IMG/VR virus record: IMGVR_UViG_3300020045_003677
Span: 1-60,097 of that record
DNA length: 60,097 bases
From: a virus
Lineage: Duplodnaviria > Heunggongvirae > Uroviricota > Caudoviricetes
Strand: one strand, 5' to 3'
The notes under the pieces were generated by a model. That model did no database searches. It saw nothing but the letters and a program-made list of their open reading frames with translations, and was not told the origin of the DNA. This document shows, piece by piece, positions 1 through 60,097 of this stretch (within the stretch, counting starts at the first letter, position 1; each line of letters starts with the position of its first letter). A program made the translations under genes and the position numbers.

Positions 1-2499
1 CTCTTGTTCTTTATCCAACAGTCTTTTAGCAAACTCTGGGGTCTTACCCATTCTGTTTGCGTACTCTTTGATTTGATCTGAATAAGCTAGATTATCTTCT
101 GGTAATAAATTAGCTGTCTCAGTTAATTCATTAGTAGTAATCTCTGCATGTTCATCGTTTGTTTTTGCAGTAGTTTTAGCAGATGCAATAGCTGCTTCAG
201 TAGCAGCAGTAGTTACCGGCTTTGCCTTAAACCATGAACGTTTAACTTCTTCAGCAGCAGTATACATCTCAGGAGTAACCTCCTTATACATCTCCTCAAG
301 TTCGGAGTATGTATTAGCTGCATTCTGGAATGAAGAATTCCTATCGGTCATAAGCTTAGCTAGATCCGGATGATCTTTTACTAGCTTATCATAGGTACCT
401 CTATATCCACCAAGTACTGATTCATAGAAGTTTACTTGCATCATTTTCAGACGGTAGTTGGCTTCTGCAATTGAAAGGTGGTTTGCTTTTTCTTTAGCAT
501 CCAACTCTTCAAGGCGCGTAAATTTCCCGTCCCCATTTAGTTTGTACGAGAACTTGTCAGTACCTAAATGTCCCTTATCTCTAGCATTTGCTAAAGACTC
601 TTTATATAGTTTCAGGTTCTCACCACCGGTAAGTACCAATTTCATTATCTTGTCTTTATCCTCTGTTTGGAAAGGTAGCGACTGGGCTCCGCCATGTCTA
701 AACACAAGTCTAGCCATTGGTCCACCTATAGCGCCACCTACTGCATTCATCAGTAAGTTTGAAGGAGCCTGTTCCCAGTACTCTGCATCATACATCCCAA
801 GCATCTTAGGGTGTTCTTCCCCGGGAGTCGTGAATCTTGAAATGACATTAGCCCCAGTTTTCAGAGCATCTCCAAATAACTGTTCTACTACTTCCTCGGT
901 TGCCTCTCCAGCAGATGCCCATCCCATTTCAGCAGCTTTACTAACCCCGCCCTGAGACATCTTTTCACTCAATGTAGCAAGTAACCCAGAAGTCTTCTGA
1001 GATACTGCCTTAGCAAATGCCCATCTAGAGGCTTCTGATTCCATTGCAGCAGGTGTGGTAAGTGCTAGGCTTTCTCTAGCTACTTTGTCCATCTGTGACT
1101 TAATAAATGGGGCAGAATCTCCGTTGATGATTACGTTTGAGATCTTATTAGCAGCAGCCATTGCTGGAAGATATGCTAGGAATAACCCAGATGCAGCATC
1201 CTCAGAGAATCCGGCTTTGATAGCCTCATCTTTTACTCCAGATGCCCCCATCAACGATAGTGCAGTTATAGTAGCTAAAGATGAAGCGCCACCCATGGTA
1301 GCCATAATCTTTTCTCTAGCTTCTTCTGCAGTTAAGCCGGCTTTGATATAAGCACTTTCGGCTGTAGCTAGTCTAGCTAATCCACCTGCTACTCTACCAA
1401 TACCACCAGCTAATACCAACTGTGCAGCAACATCAGCAACCATATTGGTAGCATTAGCTATTGTCATAGTCCTCTGTTGGTCATAATCAGCTGTAGTCAT
1501 TCCGTATGACTTGAACTTATTAGTCAGGTCATTGGTTGCTTTGATGAAGTCGTTATCATCATCGGAATCCATTAATGTGGCAGTAGAGTTTAATAAGTCT
1601 ACAAATCCACCTGCTAATGAAGACACGGTATTGATGGTTGATCTAGCTATCGCTTTTGGGATAATATATCCACCCGGAGTAGTTAGGTCATTATTAGATG
1701 TAATCCACCCTTTCATATCATGAATTGATACTATCTCACCTGTACTACGGTCTCCTTCATAGACAGCTTTAACACCGCCTTCAGCAATATCTCCTGGTTG
1801 GTACGGCACATACTCTAGAGCAGTAATCAACCTACCATCTTTTGATGCATATTTTGGGTTACCAATTACATCGTCCCATGAGTCTTCTACTTTAACAACA
1901 TCACCAGTCTCTGTAACCAGATTCTTTGAATCCAAATCAGCCTGACGTACAGATTTACGTTGGCCCATAACTTCTCCATTAAAGGAAGCTCCGCCACCAA
2001 TTTGCCTCTTGATGCCCATATCTAGTTGTACGGGCATACCTTTTCTGAACTTAGACCCCATACTGGTATCACCCATTATAAGATCATCTGTCTCATCTGC
2101 TACTTTCTTGAAGTACAACTCTTCGAGTTCTTTGTAGTACTCGTTGTACTTCTCTTTAGCTTGACCTGGGAACTTTAATTCAAATTTACTTCGAACTTCA
2201 GGATCATTCCAGTAATAATCAGCACTTTGTAGTTTGTCAGTAGCGGTCCCTTTGGATGCAGGATCTTCGCTCTTTTTGAGGAAGTCCCCAGCCTTATCTG
2301 TCGGTTTACTAGCATTGCTTTCATCCTCTTGTATTTTTAATGGGGCTGCTGCACTGTACTCAGACTCGACAGTATCAGATACCTTCTTTGGTTCTATTGG
2401 ATCAAGATGACTTGGGACTATTTCATCTGTCGCAAAAGCATTCATCTCTGTAGCAACCTGTGGTTCCATTGTATCTTGAGTTTCTAATTGATCTGCCAT
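1..2499 (-). CDS. N-terminal 833 aa of a giant virion cargo/ejection protein (runs off left edge; absent from ORF track)
   Basis: ATG at 2499 directly after the stop of the upstream gene (2501). Translates MADQLETQDTMEPQVATEMN... with no in-frame stop in my read-through to position 1. Several Gly/Ala-rich hydrophobic helices (QLVLAGGIGRVAGGLARLA, AASGLFLAYLPAMAAA, LLMNAVGGAIGGPMARLVF). Position matches the giant cargo/virion-RNAP gene cluster of crAss-like phages. Confidence 0.85.
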   Translation of the reverse strand, partial: MADQLETQDTMEPQVATEMNAFATDEIVPSHLDPIEPKKVSDTVESEYSAAAPLKIQEDESNASKPTDKAGDFLKKSEDPASKGTATDKLQSADYYWNDPEVRSKFELKFPGQAKEKYNEYYKELEELYFKKVADETDDLIMGDTSMGSKFRKGMPVQLDMGIKRQIGGGASFNGEVMGQRKSVRQADLDSKNLVTETGDVVKVEDSWDDVIGNPKYASKDGRLITALEYVPYQPGDIAEGGVKAVYEGDRSTGEIVSIHDMKGWITSNNDLTTPGGYIIPKAIARSTINTVSSLAGGFVDLLNSTATLMDSDDDNDFIKATNDLTNKFKSYGMTTADYDQQRTMTIANATNMVADVAAQLVLAGGIGRVAGGLARLATAESAYIKAGLTAEEAREKIMATMGGASSLATITALSLMGASGVKDEAIKAGFSEDAASGLFLAYLPAMAAANKISNVIINGDSAPFIKSQMDKVARESLALTTPAAMESEASRWAFAKAVSQKTSGLLATLSEKMSQGGVSKAAEMGWASAGEATEEVVEQLFGDALKTGANVISRFTTPGEEHPKMLGMYDAEYWEQAPSNLLMNAVGGAIGGPMARLVFRHGGAQSLPFQTEDKDKIMKLVLTGGENLKLYKESLANARDKGHLGTDKFSYKLNGDGKFTRLEELDAKEKANHLSIAEANYRLKMMQVNFYESVLGGYRGTYDKLVKDHPDLAKLMTDRNSSFQNAANTYSELEEMYKEVTPEMYTAAEEVKRSWFKAKPVTTAATEAAIASAKTTAKTNDEHAEITTNELTETANLLPEDNLAYSDQIKEYANRMGKTPEFAKRLLDKEQE

Positions 2500-2500
2500 A

Positions 2501-4525
2501 TTATTGTGATATTGTTCGTACAACACTTTCCCTGTTTAATCTTTCTAGTTCACTAGCTGATACCTTATTCGAAGGGTAATAATTTGCTGCTAGTGTAGCC
2601 AACTCTTTATTTGTAGATAAGATGCTGAATACTGGAACCTTAAATAGATCATCAGAAGTTTTCATCTTGATAATTAAATCCTCAGCCTGAGTAAGCCCTT
2701 TGTAGTATTCTTTAATACCGGCATCAGTAACCTTCGAAGATTCACCTACCATTGATTTGTATTCTGTAGCTTCATCAGATATACTTCCAAAGAATGTCTT
2801 TGGATCATCTGGAACTATCATATCATACTTGATGGCTTTTCGAATTGTAATCTTACCCATCTTTCTGATATCTTCATCTACTTTTGCTAGATTATCGTAT
2901 TCTGCTTGCAGAGCTGCCTCAAATACAGGGCCAGATTTCTCTCCTGCAGGATTTGTTTTCTTATTGGCAATTGCATTATCAACTGCTGTTTTATGAATTC
3001 CCGAGTTCATGACATCCCATGCAATCCCAAATTTACCATCTTTAACCACAACTGGTACATCGTGGTAAATAGTCGGATTAGTACCTGGTGCTAATACTGC
3101 TCTAGATAATCCAGATCCACTGCTCAGTTTATTTAACGGAGTGTTGCTCACGTTACCAAGAAATAGGTTATTACCAAGATCATGACCAGCAGCTAGTTGT
3201 GCCATCACAGTATTGTATTGAGCCGTCTTTGGGTACTTATTGGCATCGGCATTCTTGTACCCGTTGAAGGTCAGTAGATCTATCCCCTTGAATTCTGATG
3301 AAGTTACTGGTAGTGATCTAGCTAATTTCTTGTCAGCCTTTCCATGAACATCATCAAATGCTGTCCATTCATCTACAACTAGTGGACCGGCAACCGCAGC
3401 TGTAATAGGATTAAGTTCTGACTTATCAGCAACTTCCTCTCCTGTAGACCCTCCAGCTTCTCCAGCTTTACCTTTTAGCTGAATACTATTACCATAAGAC
3501 TCAGTTAAATGAGACATCATAGCGTTATTCAACTGCTCTTCTACCTTTCTCTTGATATATTGATTGTAGTCTGGAGCTTCTGGTTTACCGGCATACTCTT
3601 GCAAGTATGATACAATAGCACTACGTTTTAGTACTTCGTCAGTACCAGAAGATTGAAGGGTACCTTTAAGCATATTGTAAGCATTGGTCAGCTGACCAAT
3701 ATTTGATTTCTTAGTCTCACTTTCTATTGCACGTTGCCCGCCGGCAGTACCTGCTACTACCCCTGTTTTGTCTGCTAAGAAGTTAAACAGTTCGCCTACT
3801 GGAGCATCTCCAATAGTTGTAAGACCTGTATCCTTATCAGTAGTGGTTCCTATTCCTGTGAAAGCAGCCTTCAGTTGAGTTGTCAAATCCTTAGTACTCT
3901 GAATACTATGTAACATGTTTTCAAGAGCTTCTCCCTTACCACCACGTCTACCGGTAAATTCAGCGTCACCGGCGCGGGCTTCTAAGGCAGTACCAACTGT
4001 CTGTGGTTCATATCTTGACATTAGTGTTCCACCCTTAGTGACTTTCTTAGTCAGAAGGTCGTCGACTGTAACCAGATCAAACTTACCAGTTGTTCTATCT
4101 TTGACGAAAGCTTGGTCTCTATTTATAGCTAATTCCCCTCTCGCAGGTGTAGAAGATGAAACTACCTCTTTGTAGCGTGCTTCTTTCTGTGTAAGATCCG
4201 GAATTCCAACCGTCATAAGATTTTGTAGCCTTTTAGCATCGTTATCGTACGCTTCTCGCGTATACGTAGGTGAGAGGCCACTTTTCATTTTATCTTTAAG
4301 AGACTCGATTTCAGTGTATAAACTTTGCTTATCGTTCTCTAAACCAGACAGTTTGTAGTTACTGTACTTGTCATACTGGCCTTCTAATACTGGAGTAGAT
4401 GCCAGAGCTTTCTGTGGCTTCATCTTGCTGCTGGGATCTTCCCATTCGAAATTCATGGGTACATACTCAGTTTTTGCTGACATTGTTCCTCCAGCTTGGA
4501 ATTTTCTAGTTGATTTTAGTATCAT
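2501..4525 (-). CDS. putative internal virion (cargo/ejection) protein, 674 aa
   Basis: Long ORF with N-terminal RKFQAGG tag, located between the muzzle/lysis genes and the giant cargo gene. Function from synteny only. Confidence 0.6.
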   Translation of the reverse strand: MILKSTRKFQAGGTMSAKTEYVPMNFEWEDPSSKMKPQKALASTPVLEGQYDKYSNYKLSGLENDKQSLYTEIESLKDKMKSGLSPTYTREAYDNDAKRLQNLMTVGIPDLTQKEARYKEVVSSSTPARGELAINRDQAFVKDRTTGKFDLVTVDDLLTKKVTKGGTLMSRYEPQTVGTALEARAGDAEFTGRRGGKGEALENMLHSIQSTKDLTTQLKAAFTGIGTTTDKDTGLTTIGDAPVGELFNFLADKTGVVAGTAGGQRAIESETKKSNIGQLTNAYNMLKGTLQSSGTDEVLKRSAIVSYLQEYAGKPEAPDYNQYIKRKVEEQLNNAMMSHLTESYGNSIQLKGKAGEAGGSTGEEVADKSELNPITAAVAGPLVVDEWTAFDDVHGKADKKLARSLPVTSSEFKGIDLLTFNGYKNADANKYPKTAQYNTVMAQLAAGHDLGNNLFLGNVSNTPLNKLSSGSGLSRAVLAPGTNPTIYHDVPVVVKDGKFGIAWDVMNSGIHKTAVDNAIANKKTNPAGEKSGPVFEAALQAEYDNLAKVDEDIRKMGKITIRKAIKYDMIVPDDPKTFFGSISDEATEYKSMVGESSKVTDAGIKEYYKGLTQAEDLIIKMKTSDDLFKVPVFSILSTNKELATLAANYYPSNKVSASELERLNRESVVRTISQ

Positions 4526-4557
4526 GGTAACTTATATTGTTAAAATTCAATAACTAG

Positions 4558-4567
4558 ATTATAGTAA
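4558..4567 (-). promoter_or_regulatory. TTACTATAAT repeated motif (putative late promoter)
   Basis: Exact copy immediately after a terminator and about 30 nt upstream of the ATG at 4525. Same 10-mer is found in six other intergenic regions. Confidence 0.65.
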
Positions 4568-4595
4568 AAAACCCCACACCTTAGAGGTGCAGGGC
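4566..4595 (-). terminator. intrinsic terminator
   Basis: GCCCTGCACC-TCTAA-GGTGTGGGGT stem followed by a T-run, just after the stop at 4600. Confidence 0.75.
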
Positions 4596-4599
4596 TATA

Positions 4600-5499
4600 T
4601 TAAATTCGAGGTATTAATTTACCACCGTTACGATGGGTCCAGTACCCAGGTGTCTTCTGTCGTAGGACATTATTGTATCGTTGACGGGCAGCTTCGGCTC
4701 TGTCTCTAGCCTCTTTTACTGCAGGATCATATATGTTTCCTTTACTAAGTAAACTCATATATTCCTCCCTGGCTGCATCATAATCACTCTGAGCTATTGC
4801 TGTATCATTCCCCTGTTTAGTGAAGAACTTATTTAAACCGTATGCCTGAGATGTATCTGCGATATCTTTGACATCTTTTCCAGCTTCTGCAAGTAGTCGC
4901 TTCTTCTGGTCCATTGCATTTACACTGGACTCTAGTTTATAGTCAGCCAGTGACTGGGCCCTATCAATGTTTGCATTAGCAGTTTCTCCAGAACGAATCT
5001 GATTTTCTGCTACTTCTTTAGCAACTCGTTGACGTTCAGCTATTAACTGTTGTCCACGTTCAGAAGCTAATTGATCCATTGCTTGACCTCTACCTGCAGC
5101 AGCCATTTGATCTGAAATCAGTTTAGATGCAGCGTCACTACCTTTGTAAGTAGACCTCATTCTAGCAATCTGGTTTGTTCTCTGATTTAGAACTTCTGCC
5201 GGCATATCCTGTACAGGAGCAACATTAGTTTGAATAGGATTTAGACTAAGCATTTGTCGTTGCTGTTGTCTGTTCTTGATCTTATTTATTAGCCCAAGTT
5301 CCCCTAGAGTAGTACCAACAAATGCAGCGCCTTTAATAGCTTGTTCTGGATTTATTGATTTTGGTATTAGATATGTTCCGGTTCCAGGTGTTGAGGAACC
5401 TATTGCTTTCTTCGTAGATTTACCTACAAGTCCAGCTGCCTCATCCAGAAAAGAATACTGATCTGGTTTTGGTATTGGTAGGTATTCATTTAGTGCCAT
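4600..5499 (-). CDS. putative cargo protein, 299 aa, coiled-coil rich
   Basis: Gln/Ala-rich helical ORF with C-terminal HRNGGKLIPRI tag, in the cargo cluster. Confidence 0.6.
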   Translation of the reverse strand: MALNEYLPIPKPDQYSFLDEAAGLVGKSTKKAIGSSTPGTGTYLIPKSINPEQAIKGAAFVGTTLGELGLINKIKNRQQQRQMLSLNPIQTNVAPVQDMPAEVLNQRTNQIARMRSTYKGSDAASKLISDQMAAAGRGQAMDQLASERGQQLIAERQRVAKEVAENQIRSGETANANIDRAQSLADYKLESSVNAMDQKKRLLAEAGKDVKDIADTSQAYGLNKFFTKQGNDTAIAQSDYDAAREEYMSLLSKGNIYDPAVKEARDRAEAARQRYNNVLRQKTPGYWTHRNGGKLIPRI

Positions 5500-6428
5500 T
5501 ATCTGGTAGCATTTAACGGTTGGAAACTAGGAGAGTATGGATTGTACTGCTCGGTTTCTGTAGTGTGTTCTCTATAAGGGCTAATCAATCCAACTATTGT
5601 TTTTGTCTTCTTACCACTAGTGATAGCTTTCACTACCTCAGGTGAAGTTATTTGTAACCCGCTTATTCTGTCCTCTTCTTGTTTGTTGTATCCGTGTGCT
5701 CTGCTAGCTGCAATCATGCTGGATTTATAATTTTCCAGATCTTTTGTAGAAATTTGAGCTGCAGCATCAAACCCGCTTGGTTGTGTATTTGACTTAGGTA
5801 CCAAAGCAGACGCTTTAGGATATGTTACCCCAGGCACCTTCCCATAATCTAAAGACCCCATACCAGTGTATGGTTTAGTAGTAGGTTTTCCATAGTTAAC
5901 TGACCCCATTCCGCTATAAGCTACTGGTCCAGTACTAGAGCTTTGTTCCTCAGTCTCCTGTGTTTTTGGAGCAGAATTAAATCCCATTCTAAACTGTTCA
6001 TCTGGAGCAAATGTTAATCTTCTTGGTACTAAAGTACTAGGAGATCCTAATGAGAATCTATTCTGTACACTAGTCGAATTCCACGGTTCTACAGGACTAC
6101 TAACAGTAGGCTTTGTATCACCTGTGGTAGTAGATTTTGCTTCAGGTTGTTTAGGAGTAGGTGTTGATGGATGTACTTGTGCTGGTATCTCTCCAACCGT
6201 ATTCATCTCAGTATCTCTGGTTAGAGACTTACCTATCAATCGATTAACACGTCTGTTCTTAGCAAATAATCCAGATCCAACATCAATACCACTAAGAGGA
6301 AGGTTTTCAGTTTTACCAGTAGCTTTATTGATCAGTTGGTATGTACCAGCTTCTCTATTGAGTTTAACGTCACTTGTCTTCAAGAGTTCGCTTGCTCGTT
6401 GCTCTGCTTGTTGTCTTAATTTTCCCAT
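5499..6428 (-). CDS. hypothetical protein, 309 aa, Pro/Ser/Thr-rich (likely disordered)
   Basis: ORF coupled by TAATG overlap to the next gene. Short internal repeat YSGMGSVNYGK / YTGMGSLDYGK. Confidence 0.6.
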   Translation of the reverse strand: MGKLRQQAEQRASELLKTSDVKLNREAGTYQLINKATGKTENLPLSGIDVGSGLFAKNRRVNRLIGKSLTRDTEMNTVGEIPAQVHPSTPTPKQPEAKSTTTGDTKPTVSSPVEPWNSTSVQNRFSLGSPSTLVPRRLTFAPDEQFRMGFNSAPKTQETEEQSSSTGPVAYSGMGSVNYGKPTTKPYTGMGSLDYGKVPGVTYPKASALVPKSNTQPSGFDAAAQISTKDLENYKSSMIAASRAHGYNKQEEDRISGLQITSPEVVKAITSGKKTKTIVGLISPYREHTTETEQYNPYSPSFQPLNATR

Positions 6429-6433
6429 AGTAT

Positions 6434-6468
6434 AAAAGAAAAATAGCCGAACTTAACGCCCGGCTATT
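6434..6468 (-). terminator. intrinsic terminator
   Basis: AATAGCCG...CGGCTATT stem followed by TTTCTTTT, directly after the stop at 6472. Confidence 0.75.
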
Positions 6469-6471
6469 AGA

Positions 6472-6819
6472 TTATTTTCTAAACACTGGACCTCTAGTCA
6501 TTCTCATACCGTTGCGTCCCATTGGTGCTCCACCTTGCGGTGCGCCTGCTTCAGCGCCTGGTGCTGGGGCTCCGGGTTGTCCACCCTGTTGTGCTCCCAT
6601 CATTGCTTCTACGAGCATGTCGCAAATAGCAACTGCTAACTGAGGGTCTCTAGTCTGAGCATATTCTGCAAGCATTGCTTCGATGTCAGCTCCACCACCC
6701 TGAGGTGCTCCTTCTTGTCCGCCTGGTGCTCCACCTGGAGCCGGTGCTGGTGCCATAGGGCCACCCTCTTGGAATTTTCTAACTCCACCATTGTATTGAT
6801 TTAACCAATCTTTTGCCAT
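6472..6819 (-). CDS. small Gly/Pro/Gln-rich cargo-like protein, 115 aa (start corrected to MAKDW)
   Basis: ATG at 6819 follows the upstream stop (6824). Carries YNGG, RKFQEGG and RNGM tags around a short helical core IEAMLAEYAQTRDPQLAVAICDMLVEAM. Confidence 0.7.
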   Translation of the reverse strand: MAKDWLNQYNGGVRKFQEGGPMAPAPAPGGAPGGQEGAPQGGGADIEAMLAEYAQTRDPQLAVAICDMLVEAMMGAQQGGQPGAPAPGAEAGAPQGGAPMGRNGMRMTRGPVFRK

Positions 6820-6823
6820 CTTG

Positions 6824-7603
6824 TTAACGATTTTTGTTGTTACTGTTATTATATAAGATACCACCGTGTTTCCGTGTTACTAGTAATGAACCTGATTCAT
6901 CACTTGAAAACCTTTTTAGTATATTTTGTGTGTAGTTAATTGTCTCTTTCTGAGATCCTTTACTTAAATATCTGTACCAGTTATTTGGGTAACCGTCAGC
7001 TTTAGATGCAGCAACTGCGTTAGCTACATTACCAATACCATTATTGTACGCGGCAATCATACGCTTAACTCTTTCTGCTTCTGTTGGAGCATCTTTTACT
7101 CCTGGTTGAGTATAAATCCAATCCATGTACTTCTCTTGAGCTTGTGCAGCCCAATAAGGGTTTCTACGACTTGCATTCTTTGGTACCCATCCTTTAGACT
7201 TCATATCCTCCCATGTAGCAGGCATGAATTGTGCTGGTCCTACTGCACCGGCTTTTGATACGTCTGACCCCTTACCACTCCATTCGAATCCTCTCTGAAT
7301 CTTCAGTAACTTTTCTCTGTGTCTAGGGTCGTTCCAGTTAAGATTAATACTATTAGTATTATCTAGATAGGTAGAATCTACACCAGTATCTGGAGTAGCT
7401 TTTAGTCCCCATTTAACTGTTGGGGTAGGAATTGATGCGGGAGCAGTAACAGCTTCTGTTGTAATCTTAGCTGCAGTTGTCTTCTCCTCTTTATCAGCAA
7501 TCGGGCTGTTATTCTCAATATATGCTCCAGCTGATGATCGTACTATAAGCGGCTTTGCTTCCCATCTATCGAATGGTTCTAATGCCTTCTGTATGATAGC
7601 CAT
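6824..7603 (-). CDS. lytic transglycosylase (SLT / lysozyme-like) domain protein
   Basis: SLT motifs GAVGPAQFMPATW and MIAAYNNGIGNV, ETINY near the C-terminus, candidate catalytic Glu in IQRGFEWSG. C-terminal RKHGG tag. Confidence 0.85.
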   Translation of the reverse strand: MAIIQKALEPFDRWEAKPLIVRSSAGAYIENNSPIADKEEKTTAAKITTEAVTAPASIPTPTVKWGLKATPDTGVDSTYLDNTNSINLNWNDPRHREKLLKIQRGFEWSGKGSDVSKAGAVGPAQFMPATWEDMKSKGWVPKNASRRNPYWAAQAQEKYMDWIYTQPGVKDAPTEAERVKRMIAAYNNGIGNVANAVAASKADGYPNNWYRYLSKGSQKETINYTQNILKRFSSDESGSLLVTRKHGGILYNNSNNKNR

Positions 7604-7606
7604 AGT

Positions 7607-8206
7607 TTAATTATCAGAGTGTTGAGGAGCTTGAGTATCCTGTTTATTTATCATCCTAACCATTGCTCTTCCTACAGCCCTAAAATCTGCTGGTGTTTCG
7701 GCATCTATGACTAGGTCGTATAGCTGTGTTGTATGAATTCTAGAGAATACACGCTCATTACCTTTAACATTCATCTGAACCTTTCCAGTATCGTCTAGAA
7801 CATGTAAGTCGCCTTCTGGTGTTAATCCACCTTCAGCCATAACTATCGTCCCGTCCTCTTTCTTTTCACCTACCCAGTCTACTTCATCACCAACCGAAAC
7901 TGAACCTTTACATCCTAGCTTTACTTCTAGTACAGCGGTAACCGGTTTACCAATATCTATATCTGCAGAACTCACTCTAGCTTTCTTAATTGCTATCACC
8001 TTACCATCATTGATGAATATAAGGTCTAGTGGGAACTTCATCCCCTTCATAGTAATTATTATATTGGTTGGTTGTTCGTATTTCAGAACCAGGCCACTGT
8101 CATCGGGTAAAGACTCTTCATTTATTCCGGATAACCCTCTTCGTCTAGATGCGTCGGTTGAAGCTACTTTAACTGTGAAGGTTTCGTTACCTATATTTAG
8201 CTTCAT
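7607..8206 (-). CDS. DUF192-like domain protein with extra C-terminal domain
   Basis: N-terminal pattern VKVAST...RRRGLS...GLVL...MKGMKFPLDLIFI...AVLEV is typical of DUF192 (COG1430). It is followed by MAEGG and a ~55-aa C-terminal domain. Confidence 0.75.
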   Translation of the reverse strand: MKLNIGNETFTVKVASTDASRRRGLSGINEESLPDDSGLVLKYEQPTNIIITMKGMKFPLDLIFINDGKVIAIKKARVSSADIDIGKPVTAVLEVKLGCKGSVSVGDEVDWVGEKKEDGTIVMAEGGLTPEGDLHVLDDTGKVQMNVKGNERVFSRIHTTQLYDLVIDAETPADFRAVGRAMVRMINKQDTQAPQHSDN

Positions 8207-9259
8207 TTACACCTCCAGTCCAAATTTCTTACTGTTATCCTTAGTGTTGTTGAGTAACTCATGGTGAACCAATTTACCCAATGTCTCCAACACACTGTCC
8301 TCATTTTTTGTATTATAGTTATTAACTAGCTTTTCTACCTGCTTTGAAGCCTCTAGATTTAGAATTAATTCCTCTTTTTCAAGCTCGAACTCCTTTCTAC
8401 CCTTTGAGTCTATCACAGGGATACCTTTGTCTTTATTACCGAGACTATTGTTCTCCTTGTGAAGTTTACCAGAAACTATTACGTTAATAGAACCACCGGC
8501 CTTAAACCGTGGTACTAGCTTATCTTTCTTTTCAAACTTACTTACCAAGTATTCAGTCTTCATTTTCATACCATCCTTACCAAGCATGGCCTGATACTGA
8601 TTGGCATACTGATTACCGTAGAACTTATTGTAGGAAGCATTGTGTGCTTTATTATAAGCATCACCACCAGCTTCTGATTCTTTCTTACCTTTGAAGAACC
8701 CAGATATACCACCTATTAGACCCCCGGCAACAGCACCTACTGCTGTTCCTAGTCCTGGAACCACCGATCCAATCAATGCACCAGTAGCGGCACCTTTGCC
8801 GGCCCCTTGTAATGCTGATTTAGATCCGGATACTCCCTTTGATTCGGCTTTTACATTACCGAACTCATCAGCGCCAGGGTCTTTAGAGAATGCATCAATA
8901 GCTCCAACTCCTAAGGCAGCCACACCCTCCGATATAGCTCCTACTGTGCCGGCTGACATTCCTGCTCCTGCGCCAACTTTAGGTGTTGCAAGAGTTTTAG
9001 CATCCACTAATGGATTGGCTCCTGGTGCACTACCTAGTCCTGTCAATACATTAGCCTGAGATGATCCTAGACTAATAGGTTTGATAGGATCCATGGTACC
9101 ATTAGGTGGTTTCCATGTAGATAGGGTAGCTCCCATATCAACGGTACCTTGCGATGGGTTACCTCCAGTCATATTGAACAGGTATTGATACGGATTAGTA
9201 GCAGTTCTCTGCCTAACCGAGCCACCCTCTTGTAGTTTAGGAATTAACTTTATAGCCAT
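8207..9259 (-). CDS. putative cargo/ejection protein with glycine-zipper hydrophobic segment, 350 aa
   Basis: GAATGALIGSVVPGLGTAVGAVAGGLIGGISG glycine zipper. Tags KLQEGG, KDGMK and RFKAGG. Confidence 0.65.
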   Translation of the reverse strand: MAIKLIPKLQEGGSVRQRTATNPYQYLFNMTGGNPSQGTVDMGATLSTWKPPNGTMDPIKPISLGSSQANVLTGLGSAPGANPLVDAKTLATPKVGAGAGMSAGTVGAISEGVAALGVGAIDAFSKDPGADEFGNVKAESKGVSGSKSALQGAGKGAATGALIGSVVPGLGTAVGAVAGGLIGGISGFFKGKKESEAGGDAYNKAHNASYNKFYGNQYANQYQAMLGKDGMKMKTEYLVSKFEKKDKLVPRFKAGGSINVIVSGKLHKENNSLGNKDKGIPVIDSKGRKEFELEKEELILNLEASKQVEKLVNNYNTKNEDSVLETLGKLVHHELLNNTKDNSKKFGLEV

Positions 9260-10226: not shown

Positions 10227-13200
10227 TTAAGAAAAGCTTTTACTATACGTAGTTACAATAGCTCCTATGTACATTTGGTCTTCTCCTTTGAATGTCATCT
10301 CGAACTTCATCCATTTACTTCTAGGTTTGTTTTTGAACGCCAAACCATTCATACATGAGATCTTAGCGTAGCCTTCCTCAATCGCTGAGTCAGCTAACCA
10401 TACTGGTGTCTTGTACCCAAATACCACGTTCCAGTTAGATAGGTTGGCTACTGCCGGCTTATCTACTGTTATGGTAGTACCACTCACAGATATTATAGTA
10501 AATCTGTAGATAACACCATTATTCTCTAGTGAGATATAGTCCCCTGGTAATAACGCAGAAGTTCTTCCTGGAGGAATCATTGTAGGAGCAGCATCAAGAG
10601 TTAATGTTTTTGATCCTGATATCATAGTTCCTGTACACTGAATGTACTGAGTTCCAACCTTATGCATCAACATGTAAGAGATATTTGTGTATGGTTTCAA
10701 TGGTTGGCTTACCCATGCTCCATTGTCCGCATTACCATCTCCTAAGTATTTTACTTCATCTGGTAGTGGGTTATCTCCTGCTATCCATATGTTCTCGAAT
10801 ACTTTGTACGATCCCGGATCATCTATCACCGAGTATCTGATAACACTCTCTACCTGTACATCATACAGAATGTTGTTCCCTCCGTATGTAACACTAGAAT
10901 CATATGTATAGATGCTAGATGTTTTATCGGTACTATCTGGCCGTAGAGTTGGTACAGGAGTAAACGAGTACCTGTTACTGTTAGCCATTGCGAAGAAACT
11001 TCTGTGATCTTCTGTTTCACATATCCAACAGTTTAACTGTTGTAGTTCATTAAAGACCAGAGTTCTAGCCACATACACCGAGTTGTTACTGGAGTCTCTT
11101 GCTATAAAGGTGAATGATATATCCCCCTTAGCCGGGTCAAATGTAGAAAACACTGTTGTAATAGAGTTTGCACCAACTGTAGAAAGGTCAGCCATAATGT
11201 TTCCAAGTATGTCTTGTACCCTTGTGTCGCTGATTATCTCAGGTGCACCTCCGTTAGTTCTCCAAATCTTAACCCTATTCAGGTCCACACCATAGATGTA
11301 GTTATTGGTAGACACCACAGAACTTGGTTGGTCACTTCCGTATCCAGTAGAGATTATGGTAGCCTTCTGAGCAAGAACATCGGCATTATCTATGAATATA
11401 CCTCCAGTATCGTTGGACACCTGTGCACGTTCATTGATCCCTATTATACCAATACCGTCTCTAAAGATTGCGTATAGCTTATCACTAAGTGTGATAAGTC
11501 TGTATATTGGGCCTAATTCTGAGTTATAGTCTTTATAGTTTAATCCCTTAAAGATAGTGAACCCATTAACAAAATTAGTTTCATGGAACGACTCAGATGC
11601 ATACACCCTATTAGGATACAACTCTTTATAGTATGGAGCAGCGTCACTGAGTTTAAAGAACTTGTTGTCGGATACGTTCTGTGCCATATATCCCTTATTC
11701 ATCTTAGAAGTATCGAATAGTCTGTTACCTCTACTTGATGATAAAGTTCTAGCTGGTATGAATGATCTATCTCTACCAAATGCTGCAAACTCTCCGGCTA
11801 CTGTTCTATCCTTACTTCTGATATTGAAGTTATAGTTGGACTGAGCTGGAATAGGTATTACGTACCCATAATTAAGCATTCCAAGGTTACGTCTACCTTC
11901 TGAGAAAGCTGCAAGGTCAGTTGCCTGTGGGGCCTCTTTGATACCCAATGGGTACCATACTTGCTTCCAACTTAACCCAAGATAGCAATCTCCACCATAC
12001 AAGTCTATCACAGGACTTAGAGCGTTCACTCCTTCAAACTCTTCGTATTTAAATCTTCTACTGATTGCAATGTACTCTGTATCACTATCTTCTGTGTAGA
12101 TTGATTTCCATAACTCTGCAGTCTTGTATCCTTCTTGTCCTGGATTAAAAATCTCTGCATGTGCACCAAATACACTAGTATCAATGAACCCAGTAGAGAA
12201 TCCCTTTACAGACGAAAAGTAATTCACGTTTCTATATTCACTTTCCGAAGATACTGGGTTATCATATATAATGTCTTCTCGTGGGCTTAAAGATTTTAGT
12301 GGTAAATCTGTTGCCCCATAGGATTCTATTTTCATTCCTAGATACCTACCAAATTTTACACAGACACCAAGATTACTTCCAAGGTTATCCCAGTACCCTT
12401 TAGCTACTAATCCTCCGTCTACTCCGGGTAAGAATACCTCGCCTCTGAAAGCATTGTCGTGATTATTCATGATATTGTCGATACCATTAATAGCAGTCTT
12501 TTGTCTATCTCTAGTAAGTCCACTAGAGCCAATGGTATATCTATAATACCACGCATACATTACTCTATCCAGTAGTCCTGTGAAGCTCTTGCTACCAGTC
12601 CCTAAAGCACCATCTCCAATAAAATCAATTGCTCCAGAATAGTATTTATTTGTAGTAGTATCGAATGAGAATGAGCTCTGCAGTTTAGTAAAATAGGGTA
12701 ATTTCTCATTGTATATATCAGGATTGGTAAGCGTCTGAACTTCTCCATCGATACCATTTAATGAGATAGATATGCTGAAATCTCCGTGCATCAATGATGC
12801 AGCTAGTTCTGGACCACACTCAACATCTGGAGAGTATAGTGCCCAACCTTTAAGGTCATTATAGTCACATATTGGTGCCCTTACTACAATATCAGAAGAT
12901 GTGGTTTTACCCAATGTTTCATCAACTCTCTGAAGTGATAGTACCCTTGTGCCCCTAACAATCTTATCTACTGTAGATAAGAAATATGAAAGCGGTACGG
13001 ATACAGTTTTATTGTCTACATCAATGTCGGCAGAGTCAATAGGAACTCCTGTTGCTGTATATGCCGGCTGAACTCCCACTCCTTCAAATAATAGATTAGT
13101 TATCTTAGTGGTAACATAGGTCATTGGAACTACTACTTTTGGTACCAGAACTCCAACATACTTTGGTAGAGTCGGATCCACTAATACTGTGGTAGTTACT

Positions 13201-15395
13201 TCTACTGGAAGTCCATTAGTATCAAGTAGATTGGTTAGGATGGTATCATCAGTTGGTTTAGGTAACGACGCTGTACCAAACGGCGCACATAGACTTGGTG
13301 CTGGAGCTAATACTACGTTATCCTTCTTAATTGAATTAACACCACAACCGGTCCAGTTACTAGGAAATCCAAATTCCACAGTACAAGAGGAATCACCATC
13401 TATACCCCTACTCTCTGTAGGATAAGCTGCGGTTGGAATTACTAATCCTTCTAGTATTTTATCTTTAACACGAGCCCGTCTAACAAAGAAGAATCCTTTA
13501 GATGCTGATTTAGCATCCACAGCAGGCCCATATAATGATGTTAGATTGGTACCAGACTTAGTACCATAATCAAAGACCAGCCCGTCTGTTGTTATTTCGA
13601 TAGAACCAAATCTAAGATTGATCTTAGGTGCTGGAATACCACTGGCTGTAATGTCTATACATGATGCTAAGCTTCCAAACGCTGTTGTAACTGATCCTCG
13701 GATCGAGTATTCGTTTGTTGATGTGTTATAGAATACTCTCCATGGGTTGATTACAACACCTATAGTAGCTTCATTACTTGATAGATATCCTGGAATCGCT
13801 TGTTCATATGGAACTACTGTAAGTAATCCTTGCACATCAACTAGCAGTTTTGTACCCTTAAATATGATATCAGAATCAGTAATGGACCATAGATCTCCGT
13901 TAGCAGCTGTCCTGTATACACCCTTAGTATTTACACCTGAAGTACCAAATATATCCCCATTTAATGGGAGTGGTGGGTATGCAGTTAGAATATCGCCGAA
14001 CGTATCTGCTAACCGGTCCATACCTTTCATAGTATACACTGGGGACAGGCCATTATCAGTAATGAAAACAACTCCCAGTTCGTATGTCTCTCCCTTCCAG
14101 AAGCCTAGATTGTTGTATGTGAAGTCGGTATTTGAGTAGTTCTTTCCAGATTTATCTGGAGTCAATCCACCTGCACTACCTGTATTATCATGATAGATAT
14201 CAAAGACACCCTCTGATATCTCTAATGTTTTTGCTAATGATTCAAGAATGGTATCTGTGGTGTATGACTCTTCGGAGTTTGCTACTATCAGTCTATCATT
14301 TGATATCGCGATAGTTTTCCCCTTACTGATAGAAGAATACTTAAGACCAATCTCATCTTTGTTGAAGTTTGACACTTGTTCATACCCTGTATGTACAATG
14401 ATGCATTTACCATCTATTATCTTGTAAGTGTTCTCGATAGAGAAAGCTGTGGTAACAAAGTCGGCATCACCACTAGCAACAGTAAAGTATACCTTAATAC
14501 CGTAGTATGAGCTGTCCAGGTTCTCTAATGTGAACTTAACAGATCTACTAGTTTTCTGGGTTCCGTCCATACCATAGCTAGTGACATCAGTATTTCCTTG
14601 ATGTACAGTCACTAACCTAGATTCTTCTATAGTATCAGTCTGCGCCCCATCATCCTTGATGTACTTAAAGAAGTACCGATACCCGCCGGCAGGAAGACTT
14701 CCTCCGTCTACTAGCCCATTGAATGTTACTTTAGGAATACTAACAGAAGTTGGTATTAATTCGGTCTGTGAGAAATAGAAGTCACTGTACGAGTTGGTAC
14801 CGTTACCGGTTCTGTGTTTGATAAGCTCAGCTTTCTTACTACCAGCTAACACAGCGAATCGTGTGTTTATAAGTCGTATTGGGTTTGTACTATCTGTGAG
14901 TATGATATTCACAGATGAGTCATATGACTTCGATAGTTTCACATCCACAAAGTCTCCATCAGCAAAATACAAGTTAGAAGTAGTGAATGGACTGAAGTAG
15001 TTTGCATCCTCATAGTTCCCAGAACCATCGTGGTAGTTATTCAATGGTTTGTAAGTATTCTCCATGTTAACAATACCCGATGTACTGCCGGCGTATACCG
15101 GACTTGGGAATGTACCAATCTCACCAACGCTTGTTGTGGAATTGAAACTAATAATGTATAGAACGTTGTCTAGTTCTGATACTGCTACTGGTTTGAACCC
15201 GGGAGATATGTGTGTGACGAATTGGTTACCATCTCGCTTCTGTAGTATTAACTGACTACCAGAAGCGGCGGCAACAAACTCTATATTCTTTGCGTATGTA
15301 AGTGACTTGTTATCAGCTCTCAGTGGGTGAACATCAGTGATCATACCAGCCTCGAAGCTATTAGAAGCATTAATTTTCTGAGGGAGTGTTGCCAT
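10227..15395 (-). CDS. tail muzzle / tail stabilisation protein (P22 gp10-like), 1722 aa
   Basis: N-terminal NSFEAGMITDVHP...LTYAKNIEF, FWKGETYELGVVF, YGGDCY and YPNRVYAS motifs plus C-terminal beta-propeller-like repeats. Located right after the IHF-like genes as in crAss-like phages. Confidence 0.75.
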   Translation of the reverse strand: MATLPQKINASNSFEAGMITDVHPLRADNKSLTYAKNIEFVAAASGSQLILQKRDGNQFVTHISPGFKPVAVSELDNVLYIISFNSTTSVGEIGTFPSPVYAGSTSGIVNMENTYKPLNNYHDGSGNYEDANYFSPFTTSNLYFADGDFVDVKLSKSYDSSVNIILTDSTNPIRLINTRFAVLAGSKKAELIKHRTGNGTNSYSDFYFSQTELIPTSVSIPKVTFNGLVDGGSLPAGGYRYFFKYIKDDGAQTDTIEESRLVTVHQGNTDVTSYGMDGTQKTSRSVKFTLENLDSSYYGIKVYFTVASGDADFVTTAFSIENTYKIIDGKCIIVHTGYEQVSNFNKDEIGLKYSSISKGKTIAISNDRLIVANSEESYTTDTILESLAKTLEISEGVFDIYHDNTGSAGGLTPDKSGKNYSNTDFTYNNLGFWKGETYELGVVFITDNGLSPVYTMKGMDRLADTFGDILTAYPPLPLNGDIFGTSGVNTKGVYRTAANGDLWSITDSDIIFKGTKLLVDVQGLLTVVPYEQAIPGYLSSNEATIGVVINPWRVFYNTSTNEYSIRGSVTTAFGSLASCIDITASGIPAPKINLRFGSIEITTDGLVFDYGTKSGTNLTSLYGPAVDAKSASKGFFFVRRARVKDKILEGLVIPTAAYPTESRGIDGDSSCTVEFGFPSNWTGCGVNSIKKDNVVLAPAPSLCAPFGTASLPKPTDDTILTNLLDTNGLPVEVTTTVLVDPTLPKYVGVLVPKVVVPMTYVTTKITNLLFEGVGVQPAYTATGVPIDSADIDVDNKTVSVPLSYFLSTVDKIVRGTRVLSLQRVDETLGKTTSSDIVVRAPICDYNDLKGWALYSPDVECGPELAASLMHGDFSISISLNGIDGEVQTLTNPDIYNEKLPYFTKLQSSFSFDTTTNKYYSGAIDFIGDGALGTGSKSFTGLLDRVMYAWYYRYTIGSSGLTRDRQKTAINGIDNIMNNHDNAFRGEVFLPGVDGGLVAKGYWDNLGSNLGVCVKFGRYLGMKIESYGATDLPLKSLSPREDIIYDNPVSSESEYRNVNYFSSVKGFSTGFIDTSVFGAHAEIFNPGQEGYKTAELWKSIYTEDSDTEYIAISRRFKYEEFEGVNALSPVIDLYGGDCYLGLSWKQVWYPLGIKEAPQATDLAAFSEGRRNLGMLNYGYVIPIPAQSNYNFNIRSKDRTVAGEFAAFGRDRSFIPARTLSSSRGNRLFDTSKMNKGYMAQNVSDNKFFKLSDAAPYYKELYPNRVYASESFHETNFVNGFTIFKGLNYKDYNSELGPIYRLITLSDKLYAIFRDGIGIIGINERAQVSNDTGGIFIDNADVLAQKATIISTGYGSDQPSSVVSTNNYIYGVDLNRVKIWRTNGGAPEIISDTRVQDILGNIMADLSTVGANSITTVFSTFDPAKGDISFTFIARDSSNNSVYVARTLVFNELQQLNCWICETEDHRSFFAMANSNRYSFTPVPTLRPDSTDKTSSIYTYDSSVTYGGNNILYDVQVESVIRYSVIDDPGSYKVFENIWIAGDNPLPDEVKYLGDGNADNGAWVSQPLKPYTNISYMLMHKVGTQYIQCTGTMISGSKTLTLDAAPTMIPPGRTSALLPGDYISLENNGVIYRFTIISVSGTTITVDKPAVANLSNWNVVFGYKTPVWLADSAIEEGYAKISCMNGLAFKNKPRSKWMKFEMTFKGEDQMYIGAIVTTYSKSFS

Positions 15396-25357: not shown

Positions 25358-25404
25358 ATTATCATTATCTTATTTATCATGTTTTTGTTTCAAATAGTCC
25401 CATG

Positions 25405-53643: not shown

Positions 53644-53901
53644 TTAACCTATCCACCAAGAATGATCTGCATCTGAGAATTCTTTTGAATTTTCTCCAAT
53701 GCACCAGTTACAATTACTTATCTCACCCTTAGCTAGTAGCTTACGATACTTTCTACCAGATATAAGTTTCTTGTTCCTATCACTCATGTAACGTATGCTA
53801 CAACTCTTCTTGTCGTTCTTAATATCATGCACTTCATTGGTGTGTACATTAAGAAGTAGTCTATAACCTAGACGTAGTTTGATTCTGTAAATTAATCCCA
53901 T
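53644..53901 (-). CDS. small basic Cys-containing hypothetical protein, 85 aa (start corrected to MGLIYR)
   Basis: The track's upstream extension overlaps tRNA-Phe. ATG at 53901; His/Cys residues HTNEVH...C...CNWC could bind Zn. Confidence 0.6.
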   Translation of the reverse strand: MGLIYRIKLRLGYRLLLNVHTNEVHDIKNDKKSCSIRYMSDRNKKLISGRKYRKLLAKGEISNCNWCIGENSKEFSDADHSWWIG

Positions 53902-57802: not shown

Positions 57803-57964
57803 CTATTTACTCTTCACTTTGCTACCACCTGGAGCCATGTTCTGTACTGGTGTCTTTTCTAGTTTAGAAGGTTTCACTAATATACCTTTACGTTTAGTTG
57901 ACCAGCCCATCTTATCTTGAGGACCGTCACCACAAGTGGCACATGGTTTTGTCTTTAGGATCAT
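57803..57964 (-). CDS. small basic CxxC protein, 53 aa (below track cutoff)
   Basis: MILKTKPCATCGDGPQDKMGWSTKRKG...NMAPGGSKVKSK; ATGA overlap with the upstream stop; fills the gap before terL. Confidence 0.6.
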   Translation of the reverse strand: MILKTKPCATCGDGPQDKMGWSTKRKGILVKPSKLEKTPVQNMAPGGSKVKSK

Positions 57965-60096: not shown

Positions 60097-60097
60097 A

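What the first reader, a model, noticed from the sequence alone, without database searches (positions are those of the whole stretch)
2501..9259. Shared basic-x-x-GG peptide tag on unrelated cargo proteins: candidate capsid-addressing or processing system
Seen: otherwise unrelated ORFs carry the same short tag at termini or domain borders. Examples: RKFQAGG (674 aa, N-term), HRNGGKL (299 aa, C-term), QYNGGVRKFQEGG and GRNGMRM (115 aa), RKHGGIL (SLT, C-term), VMAEGGL (DUF192, domain border), and KLQEGG, GKDGMKM, RFKAGGSI (350 aa). It recurs at the other end of the window (SMGGVL, KCGGVL, KTGGTV, MAPGGSKV). I did not see it at the termini of MCP, portal, rings or TerL. Inference: a modular 'zip code' that docks proteins inside the procapsid, or marks maturation cleavage, letting the phage load arbitrary enzymes (SLT, DUF192) for injection. 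This would be analogous to the T4 capsid-targeting sequence. I know of no characterisation of this motif, though it may have been noted in crAss-like proteomes.
Basis: partly seen in the sequence, partly recalled or inferred. Interest (0 to 1): 0.78.

Follow-up and report, generated by a model that had tools for sequence, protein, structure and literature searches.

The report
Shared Gly-Gly tag on crassvirus cargo
A short peptide (basic, aromatic, Gln or Lys, any residue, Gly-Gly, any residue, hydrophobic) recurs far beyond chance at the ends and module joints of proteins that this 175-kb crAss-like phage probably packs into its particle and injects; it is most likely an uncut recognition label that I did not find in the papers searched, but what reads it is unknown.

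Summary
The stated rule, basic-x-x-GG, is not enriched (2 sites against 2.7 expected in the block).

A tighter motif is real: [KR]-[FYL]-[QK]-x-G-[G/M]-x-[LIMV].
- It occurs 4 times in the 2,205 aa of the block, against 0.03 expected, and never in the other 53,070 aa of the genome.
- A matrix trained only on distant phages picks the N-termini of the 674-, 115- and 350-aa proteins as the best non-self sites in the proteome.
- The tag survives as a conserved island in orthologues that are only 16-27% identical overall.

The carriers lie between the crAss muzzle gene and the giant polymerase-associated genes. That is where crAss001 encodes its cargo proteins. A second set lies upstream of the terminase gene and includes a homologue of crAss001 cargo protein C1.

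Two "unrelated" instances, the DUF192 border and the internal site of the 350-aa protein, are the same homologous domain of about 100 aa.

Cleavage is disfavoured:
- The second Gly is replaced by Met or other residues at equivalent sites.
- Conservation spans both sides of the Gly-Gly.
- The crAss001 model runs through three GG sites.
- Six protease families are absent from the genome.

My best reading is an uncleaved docking or recognition peptide for cargo loading or ordering (0.5). I found no description in the papers searched. This scan has noted the same tag in at least seven other genomes.

The parts
4481..4507 (-). N-terminal tag RKFQAGGTM (residues 7-15) of the 674-aa cargo-block protein (gene 2501-4525).
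   Evidence: Matrix score 16.1, the second best site in the proteome. It is kept in orthologues that are 16-62% identical overall. Coordinates checked.
4612..4635 (-). C-terminal tag HRNGGKLI of the 299-aa protein (gene 4600-5499). This copy is degenerate.
   Evidence: It lies 8 residues from the stop. Orthologues end in YKNGGKLMPRI, LFKNGGKLIRKK, KRNGGKLIAKS and NKKGGKLIARN. The L002 copy scores 19.8.
6754..6780 (-). N-terminal tag RKFQEGGPM of the 115-aa protein (gene 6472-6819, ATG at 6819).
   Evidence: Matrix score 16.0. It is conserved in seven relatives as RKFQ[EQMA]GG, FQEGG or KFQQGG.
6499..6519 (-). C-terminal tag variant GRNGMRM of the 115-aa protein, with Met in place of the second Gly.
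   Evidence: The orthologue in L014 has PVFKMGGKLLRRN at this position. L011 has MGRKGMKLNRGP, which scores 13.6.
6851..6874 (-). C-terminal tag RKHGGILY of the SLT lytic transglycosylase (gene 6824-7603).
   Evidence: Pfam SLT, E 4.9e-11. Orthologues end in RKHGGILYNN, RKLGGVLFKQ and MKFGGILFKQ. The tag is absent in L004 and L011, and in the glucosaminidase of L003.
7820..7846 (-). IVMAEGGLT, the cap of the C-terminal extension of the DUF192 protein (gene 7607-8206).
   Evidence: DUF192 domain spans residues 10-111. The C-terminal extension is homologous to the 350-aa C-terminal domain (hhalign 90.4%, E 1.4e-6). MAEGG aligns to FKAGG.
9215..9241 (-). N-terminal tag PKLQEGGSV of the 350-aa glycine-zipper protein (gene 8207-9259). 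This protein is the C1-like cargo protein next to the muzzle gene.
   Evidence: Matrix score 14.4. The first Gly is invariant in 24 homologues. The glycine-zipper region matches crAss001 gp45 (hhalign 88%; HMM E 0.027).
8558..8581 (-). Internal tag variant GKDGMKMK of the 350-aa protein.
   Evidence: Conserved as GK[DN]GMK[LM]K in homologues. The L001 copy scores 11.3.
8210..8512 (-). C-terminal domain of about 100 aa of the 350-aa protein, capped by PRFKAGGSI (8486-8512).
   Evidence: The profile finds 1,427 protein clusters at E <= 0.001. Cap logo: F62, K65, G95, G93, K36/S23, L40/I22 out of 100. AF2 pLDDT is 78.7, and the cap sits just before the first strand.
59635..60097 (-). Window part of a 242-aa protein (genome 59635-60363) with KSMGGVLY (59863-59886) and KCGGVLKKTGGTV (59821-59859). 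It is homologous to the middle of crAss001 C1.
   Evidence: It is the best BLASTP hit of gp45 in the whole proteome, E 6e-7 plus E 0.003. KAFGGSLF of gp45 aligns to KSMGGVLY.
57815..57838 (-). MAPGGSKV near the C-terminus of a 53-aa ORF (57803-57964). A weak candidate only.
   Evidence: The string is present. It falls below the matrix threshold. Relatives carry small tagged ORFs at this place upstream of TerL.
10227..15395 (-). crAss muzzle protein gene, the upstream landmark of the cargo block.
   Evidence: Pfam crAss_MUZ, E 6.5e-31. The same gene order holds in relatives L001-L004, L011, L012 and L014.
1..2526 (-). N-terminal 842 aa of the first giant (about 3,550 aa) protein, the downstream landmark of the block. 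The gene continues at 167051-175222 across the contig's terminal repeat.
   Evidence: Relatives encode proteins of 3,238-3,550 aa at this place. No tag at its N-terminus.

Best explanation
The tag is a self-contained peptide of 8-10 residues: [KR]-[FYL]-[QK]-x-G-[G/M]-x-[LIMV], often with a basic tail. It is carried by the cargo (ejected) proteins of this crAss-like phage.

The tag occurs in three settings:
- as the cap of a domain of about 100 aa that is fused to different modules (the glycine-zipper protein and DUF192);
- alone within the first 20 residues (674-, 115- and 350-aa proteins);
- alone within the last 15 residues (299-aa, SLT, 115-aa, 90-aa and 477-aa proteins).

My reading is that it stays uncut and is read by one common partner inside the particle. 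That partner would load, position or order otherwise unrelated cargo during procapsid assembly or ejection.

Shown here: the motif, its enrichment, its conservation under amino-acid-level selection, its restriction to cargo-position genes, and the links to crAss001 C1.

Inferred: that these proteins are in the virion, that the tag is not cut, and that it docks on a partner. The partner is unknown. The portal wing is the lead, because the motif-capped part of C1 binds it in crAss001.
For: Enrichment:
- The strict pattern occurs 4 times against 0.03 expected in the block, and 0 times in the other 53,070 aa.
- In six relatives it occurs 14 times in 13,428 aa of cargo-block proteins. It occurs 0 times in 18,423 aa of upstream structural proteins and 0 times in 8,193 aa of giant proteins.
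- A matrix trained on 93 distant domain caps ranks the three N-terminal tags as the best non-self sites in the proteome. Sites scoring 14 or more: 4 observed against 0.35 expected.

Selection:
- The Gly-Gly codons differ between copies, so selection acts on the protein.
- The tag is a conserved island in orthologues that are 16-27% identical overall.
- In 144 cluster representatives, the N-terminal form occurs in 31 of 144 N-termini against 16 of 1,059 internal windows.

Cargo context:
- The gene order is muzzle gene, tagged block, giant proteins. This is the gp44 / gp45-46 / gp47 order of crAss001, whose gp45 and gp46 are virion cargo by mass spectrometry (PMC10172136).
- crAss001 gp45 hits the 242-aa protein at E 6e-7 and the glycine-zipper region of the 350-aa protein at 88% probability.
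- The block upstream of TerL is tag-rich in relatives too.

One orientation fits a free-standing peptide: the tag has the same polarity whether the rest of the protein lies after it (N-terminal copies) or before it (C-terminal copies). That does not fit a cap of a neighbouring fold.

Adaptor-like use: the capped domain is fused to unrelated modules.

Not cut in the one solved case: the crAss001 model of gp45 425-552 is continuous through GG427-428, 434-435 and 447-448 (PMC10172136; sequence).
Against: - No partner was identified.
- Presence in virions is inferred from gene position and homology only.
- Equivalence of the capped domain to the portal-bound domain of crAss001 C1 is weak. Pfam PF25725 finds nothing in the genome. 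hhalign against gp45 400-600 gives only P 0.03. The link rests mainly on one bridging protein, P0148.
- In crAss001 the copy at 204-213 lies just outside the ordered segment 214-245, so at least that copy is not a rigid contact.
- Some orthologues lack the tag: the SLT proteins of L004 and L011, the glucosaminidase of L003, and FpV4 gp30/gp31. The tag is therefore not obligatory for every block protein.
Confidence: 0.5

Rival explanations
1. The tag is a maturation cleavage site. A phage or host protease cuts after the Gly-Gly, trimming N- and C-terminal peptides and separating modules, as T4 gp21 removes the capsid-targeting sequence or adenain and ASFV pS273R cut at GG-X.
For: - The tag sits where propeptides sit, 8-20 residues from the N-terminus and 6-13 from the C-terminus, and at module joints.
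- Gly-Gly is the P2-P1 pair of several viral maturation proteases (established knowledge).
- Modules that are fused in crAss001 gp45 are separate genes here, with tags at the break points.
Against: - The second Gly is Met at equivalent sites. GRNGMRM here corresponds to FKMGGKL in L014, and GKDGMKMK is a further case.
- The second Gly is any residue in many N-terminal copies, such as KAQxG-x.
- The residue two to three positions after the Gly-Gly is as conserved as those before it.
- The crAss001 gp45 model 425-552 is continuous across three GG sites.
- No match in the complete genome, in six frames, to Peptidase_S78, S77, ClpP, C48, C5 or C39.
- Pfam finds no protease in 59 proteins of the window and the neighbouring blocks.
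- A host protease or an unrecognised fold is not excluded.
Confidence: 0.15
2. The tag is a passive structural joint. It would be a tight turn plus a short strand that merely caps or links small modules and was spread by module shuffling, with no common reader.
For: - In about 95 of 100 family representatives it is the fixed N-terminal edge of one domain.
- In the AF2 model the Gly-Gly lies immediately before the first strand.
- The modules of crAss001 gp45 appear here in a different order and in different genes.
Against: - The free-standing copies at extreme N-termini have only 3-13 residues before them, and the C-terminal copies have 6-13 residues after them, so there is nothing to join.
- The polarity of the tag is the same at both ends.
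- The tag is conserved where the flanking sequence is not.
- It is confined to cargo-position genes and absent from the other 53,070 aa.
Confidence: 0.18
3. The tag acts after ejection or on the packaged genome. It would be a basic-aromatic peptide that binds DNA, the cell wall or the membrane, for example to anchor ejected proteins in the envelope.
For: - Several copies are followed by polybasic tails: GGVLKTKKKKK in the 477-aa protein, GGKVRTKKKK at the C-terminus of crAss001 gp45, and GGTMKKKKSC and GGLLKLK in relatives.
- The carriers include a cell-wall enzyme (SLT) and a glycine-zipper membrane-type protein.
Against: - Nothing tested here bears on binding.
- The N-terminal copies are not followed by basic tails.
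- The strict sequence conservation (F, K/Q, G, G, hydrophobic) is more than a charge patch needs.
Confidence: 0.12
4. Chance, or glycine-rich low complexity. The strings would be unrelated GG dipeptides picked out by eye.
For: - The rule as written (basic-x-x-GG) and plain GG are at the expected frequency.
- MAPGGSKV and QYNGG do not stand out.
Against: - Enrichment of the strict pattern (0 of 2,000 shuffles reach 4).
- The independent matrix test.
- Positional conservation across relatives down to 16% identity.
- Four of the eight GG[KIV]L sites in the genome lie within 13 residues of a C-terminus.
Confidence: 0.02

Closest known systems
Cargo protein C1 (gp45) of Bacteroides phage crAss001 (PDB 7QOG and others; Pfam PF25725 crAss_CARG1; Bayfield et al. 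2023, PMC10172136)
   Same: - It is encoded directly after the muzzle gene.
- Its glycine-zipper or transmembrane region is homologous to the 350-aa protein (hhalign 88%).
- Its residues 376-424 and 284-341 are homologous to the 242-aa protein (E 6e-7 and 0.003).
- It holds about a dozen aromatic-x-x-GG or aromatic-GG sites, including one at the start of the portal-bound segment and one at its polybasic C-terminus.
   Different: - Here the modules are spread over at least two genes 50 kb apart and in another order.
- PF25725 does not match this genome.
- Fold searches did not find gp45.
- The crAss001 paper does not mention the motif.
- Here the tag also marks proteins with no similarity to gp45: the 674-, 299- and 115-aa proteins and SLT.
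Capsid-targeting sequence (CTS) of the phage T4 internal proteins (PMC3012670)
   Same: A short conserved peptide on otherwise diverse injected proteins. In T4 it is sufficient to load foreign proteins into the head. This is the closest analogue for how the tag may work.
   Different: - The T4 CTS is only N-terminal, binds the scaffolding core and is removed by the prohead protease gp21 (established knowledge).
- Here the tag is also C-terminal and internal, and there is no sequence similarity.
- No prohead protease was found, and cleavage is disfavoured.
GG-X maturation sites of adenain (C5), ASFV pS273R and Ulp1-like proteases, and double-glycine leaders cut by C39 peptidases
   Same: A Gly-Gly pair preceded by a hydrophobic residue a few positions upstream.
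   Different: - No C5, C48 or C39 domain in the genome.
- The second Gly is replaceable by Met.
- The P4 position is Gln or Lys rather than hydrophobic.
- There is no long leader and no ABC transporter.

Membership tests
crAss001 C1-type cargo protein (Pfam PF25725 crAss_CARG1) | Match to the PF25725 profile (133 positions) | tested here: not met
   No match at E <= 10 anywhere in the 175-kb genome in six frames. No hit in the Pfam scan of the 350-aa protein.
crAss001 C1-type cargo protein (Pfam PF25725 crAss_CARG1) | Gene directly downstream of the muzzle gene, upstream of the giant polymerase-associated genes | tested here: met
   Muzzle gene at 10227-15395. In relatives the 350-aa homologue is the very next gene. 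Here two extra small genes lie between them.
crAss001 C1-type cargo protein (Pfam PF25725 crAss_CARG1) | Sequence homology to gp45 outside the Pfam domain | tested here: met
   Glycine-zipper region: hhalign 88%, E 3e-6, and HMM E 0.027 against 7qog_M. The 242-aa protein matches gp45 at E 6e-7.
crAss001 C1-type cargo protein (Pfam PF25725 crAss_CARG1) | Portal-bound compact domain (gp45 425-552) | tested here: inconclusive
   hhalign of the domain profile against gp45 400-600 gives P 0.03. P0148 joins a gp45-like module (E 5e-12) directly to this domain (E 1.4e-17). Foldseek and VIA-align did not list gp45.
crAss001 C1-type cargo protein (Pfam PF25725 crAss_CARG1) | Presence in purified virions | not testable with these tools
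   The phage is uncultured and no proteome exists.
T4-type capsid-targeting sequence | Short conserved N-terminal peptide on diverse injected proteins | tested here: met
   N-terminal copies on the 674-, 115- and 350-aa proteins. However, C-terminal and internal copies also exist.
T4-type capsid-targeting sequence | Removed by a prohead protease (T4 gp21, S77) after loading | tested here: not met
   No S77, S78 or ClpP-type protease in the genome. The variants and the crAss001 model argue against cutting.
T4-type capsid-targeting sequence | Binds the scaffolding core; sufficient to package a foreign protein | not testable with these tools
   Needs reporter fusions in a cultured phage.
GG-X viral maturation protease system (adenain, pS273R, Ulp1-like) | A clan CE cysteine protease encoded by the virus | tested here: not met
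   PF00770 and PF02902 give no match at E <= 1 in the complete genome.
GG-X viral maturation protease system (adenain, pS273R, Ulp1-like) | Strict Gly at P1 and P2 | tested here: not met
   Met replaces the second Gly in GRNGMRM and GKDGMKMK and in their orthologues. N-terminal KAQxG-x forms occur.
Double-glycine leader peptide with C39 peptidase | A C39 peptidase or ABC transporter, and a 15-30 residue leader | tested here: not met
   PF03412 gives no match. The peptides before the Gly-Gly are 8-20 residues long and basic.

The most novel reading that the evidence does not exclude
The tag is a portable address code of crAss-like phages. An 8-10 residue peptide, at either end of a protein, would be sufficient for a virion component (portal wing, tail-barrel rings or an inner capsid protein) to load and line up any protein for injection. 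That would explain how these phages swap enzymes in and out of their cargo set.
Probability: 0.3. Interest if true: 0.8.

Novelty: new variant of a known kind. Interest (0 to 1): 0.6.

Why it matters
crAss-like phages are the most abundant viruses of the human gut. They carry megadaltons of protein cargo, including their RNA polymerase, and how that cargo is chosen, loaded and ordered for ejection is not known.

A short shared tag gives a concrete, testable handle.
- It predicts from sequence alone which genes encode injected proteins. Here that means at least ten, in two gene blocks.
- It defines the module boundaries of the mosaic C1-type proteins.
- If sufficient for loading, it would allow foreign proteins to be packaged in these phages, as the T4 capsid-targeting sequence does.
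- It also prompts a second look at the unassigned densities in the crAss001 maps.

Tried and rejected
- **No close relatives in the phage or viral collections.** blastn and tblastn of the block and of the 350-aa protein against the phage collection, and pattern scans of viral contigs, found nothing. Relatives came from protein searches instead.
- **Few 674-aa homologues.** The word-based search for the 674-aa protein returned only seven close homologues.
- **Whole-protein fold failed.** AF2 of the whole 350-aa protein was too poor to use (pLDDT 49).
- **Fold searches.** Foldseek (PDB) and VIA-align (wide) on the domain model gave only generic helical-hairpin rows, best Z 5.0, and did not list gp45.
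- **Complex prediction.** The job pairing the portal (A4) with the capped domain (A3) returned no verdict (score 0.00, controls not run). It counts neither for nor against binding.
- **Shine-Dalgarno idea rejected.** I considered that the tag is an AGGAGG ribosome-binding sequence upstream of an internal Met. The Gly codons vary, upstream regions are A/T-rich without such sites, and orthologues have no downstream Met.
- **Recombination-site idea rejected.** A DNA-level recombination site is ruled out for the same reason.
- **SLT adaptor idea dropped.** A conserved N-terminal adaptor on the SLT and glucosaminidase proteins did not hold up; the alignment is weak.
- **Record searches not possible.** Searching relatives' full records through locus handles failed because the records are not held.
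- **Literature.** Searches found no description of the motif. This is limited to the held library.

Full report
**What the window is.** The window is the first 60 kb of a complete 175,292-bp phage contig with terminal repeats. All its genes are on the minus strand. Pfam identifies a crassvirus major capsid protein at 20873-22291 and the crassvirus muzzle protein at 10227-15395. The portal at 50521-52839 belongs to the P22-portal family by its homologues. The finding's stretch, 2501-9259, lies between the muzzle gene and a giant gene. That giant gene starts at 2526 and continues across the contig ends at 167051-175222. Two more giant genes follow it. In crAss001 this position holds the cargo proteins gp45 and gp46, ahead of the polymerase-associated gp47. 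All of these were found in virions by mass spectrometry (PMC10172136).

**The observation.** The rule in the title is not enriched. [KRH]..GG occurs 2 times in the block against 2.66 expected. Plain GG occurs 22 times against 21.5.

- A tighter pattern, [KR][FYL][QK].GG, occurs 4 times in the block's 2,205 aa against 0.03 in shuffles. It does not occur in the other 53,070 aa of the genome.
- The variant G[KR]xG[MLV][KR][MLT] occurs twice against 0.00 expected.
- Those patterns were chosen after looking, so I built a position matrix from a different source. It uses the conserved peptide at the edge of a domain in 93 distant homologues, leaving out this phage and its near relatives.
- Scanned over the whole proteome, the best non-self sites are residues 7-16 of the 674-aa protein (16.1), 14-23 of the 115-aa protein (16.0) and 7-16 of the 350-aa protein (14.4).
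- Four sites reach 14, against 0.35 per shuffled proteome.
- The C-terminal copies here (HRNGGKL, RKHGGIL) are weaker. MAPGGSKV and QYNGG are not distinguishable from background.

**Conservation.** Homologues of the 350-aa protein led to eight related contigs. All have the order muzzle gene, glycine-zipper protein, DUF192, SLT (glucosaminidase in L003, no lysin called in L014), then a small and several mid-sized proteins (only partly shared by L014), then a giant protein of 3,238-3,550 aa. A ninth relative is a human-gut record whose muzzle protein is 30% identical.

- The tag sits at the same ends throughout.
- The strict pattern occurs 14 times in 13,428 aa of these cargo blocks. It occurs 0 times in 18,423 aa of upstream structural proteins and 0 times in 8,193 aa of giant proteins.
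- In orthologues of the 674-aa protein that are only 16-27% identical overall, M-[IL]-[IL]...[RK]-K-[FLY]-Q-x-G-G is still the start of the protein.
- The Gly-Gly codons differ among copies, and there is no ribosome-binding sequence to explain them.
- Several orthologues have no Met after the tag, so the tag must be translated.

**A domain behind two of the instances.** The internal copy of the 350-aa protein (PRFKAGGSI) is the N-terminal edge of a domain of about 100 aa. A profile of that domain finds 1,427 protein clusters at E <= 0.001.

- Among 100 representatives the edge reads F62, K65, x, G95, G93, K36/S23, L40/I22/M12/V12.
- AF2 folds the domain with pLDDT 78.7 and places the Gly-Gly just before the first strand.
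- The C-terminal extension of the DUF192 protein is the same domain (hhalign 90%, E 1.4e-6). MAEGG aligns to FKAGG.
- These two instances are therefore homologous, not independent. They do show one domain attached to unrelated modules.
- The full-length family members often begin with the free-standing tag too. K[FYLMWA][KQ].G occurs in 31 of 144 N-termini against 16 of 1,059 internal windows.

**Link to crAss001 C1.**

- gp45 matches the glycine-zipper region of the 350-aa family (hhalign 88%; HMM E 0.027).
- Its best BLASTP hit in this proteome is the 242-aa protein at 59635-60363, with E 6e-7 and E 0.003. KAFGGSLF aligns to KSMGGVLY.
The equivalent blocks of two relatives are also full of tagged small proteins.
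- gp45 itself carries about twelve aromatic-x-x-GG or aromatic-GG sites. One is at the start of its portal-bound segment.
- Whether our capped domain equals that portal-bound domain is open. Pfam PF25725 finds nothing. hhalign gives only P 0.03. Fold searches do not list gp45. One protein, P0148, joins a gp45-like module (E 5e-12) directly to our domain (E 1.4e-17).

**Cut or not cut.** Five points argue against cleavage.

- Met replaces the second Gly at equivalent positions. GRNGMRM here corresponds to PVFKMGGKLLRRN in L014. GKDGMKMK is conserved in the 350-aa family.
- Many N-terminal copies have no second Gly.
- The hydrophobic residue after the Gly-Gly is as conserved as the residues before it.
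- The crAss001 model of gp45 425-552 runs through three GG sites without a break.
- The complete genome has no match to six protease families used for such processing. Pfam finds no protease in the 59 proteins scanned.

A host protease or an unrecognised protease remains possible.

**What it most likely does.** The tag has the same polarity at N-termini, where the protein follows it, and at C-termini, where the protein precedes it. It is conserved where its flanks are not, and it is confined to cargo-position genes. This fits a free-standing recognition peptide better than a passive joint. I therefore favour an uncleaved docking tag read by a common virion partner (0.5). The rivals are a passive turn or joint (0.18), a cleavage site (0.15), a post-ejection or DNA-binding role (0.12) and chance (0.02). 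The partner is unknown. The one complex prediction I ran is recorded under Tried and rejected.

**Known or new.** The working analogue is the T4 capsid-targeting sequence (PMC3012670). That sequence is N-terminal only and is cut off. The crAss001 paper does not mention the motif, and three literature searches found no description. Earlier notes of this scan report the same tag in at least seven other crAss-like genomes, with similar readings. Those notes are not independent evidence. I used them only for the PF25725 lead and tested their claims here.

Noticed in passing
window 9261-10201: Two genes sit between the muzzle gene and the C1-like gene. One is a DUF5675 protein (E 3e-25) whose sequence shows an H...S-x-G-C pattern like L,D-transpeptidase-type enzymes (my reading, untested). 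The other is a 175-aa protein with several hydrophobic segments (phrog_6637). They are absent from relatives L001-L004. The membrane protein is present in L012.
   Followed up: partly
window 6472-6819: The 115-aa protein has a tag at each end, Gly/Ala/Pro-rich spacers and a central helical pair. The helical pair weakly resembles the helical hairpin of the capped domain (E 0.086 in a 208-protein search). It may be a two-ended adaptor.
   Followed up: partly
genome 59635-62061 (window 59635-60097 and locus L005): The 242-aa protein holds two crAss001 gp45 modules, NKGKFT...KRAxFAQNAxxW and SYPIP, in the opposite order to gp45. The neighbouring 90-aa and 477-aa proteins end in RGFGGILKHE and KCGGVLKTKKKKK. 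None has a Pfam or PHROG match.
   Followed up: partly
window 24374-27024: A tyrosine integrase or recombinase (PF00589, PF13102) and a 539-aa protein with a C-terminal GDSL lipase/acylhydrolase domain lie inside the structural gene module.
   Followed up: no
window 52913-53521: A 202-aa protein containing a GroES (Cpn10) domain sits just upstream of the portal gene. It is conserved at that place in relatives L015 and L016.
   Followed up: no
window 1-2526 and genome 167051-175222: The first giant gene is split by the contig ends. The last 19 residues of the window's reading frame repeat the first residues of the ORF at 167051-175222, which fits the terminal repeat of the assembly.
   Followed up: partly
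L013 (whole locus): A related crAss-like contig reads its genes only with TAG as Gln. There are 18-34 in-frame TAG codons per gene under table 11.
   Followed up: no
L016:6328-9012: The terminase large subunit of a relative carries a Hint (intein or homing-endonuclease) domain, and the protein is 894 aa instead of about 740.
   Followed up: no
window 53644-54578: The ORFs listed here translate like tRNA genes (GSNPP-type strings). This is probably a tRNA cluster between the terminase and portal genes. Not scanned.
   Followed up: no
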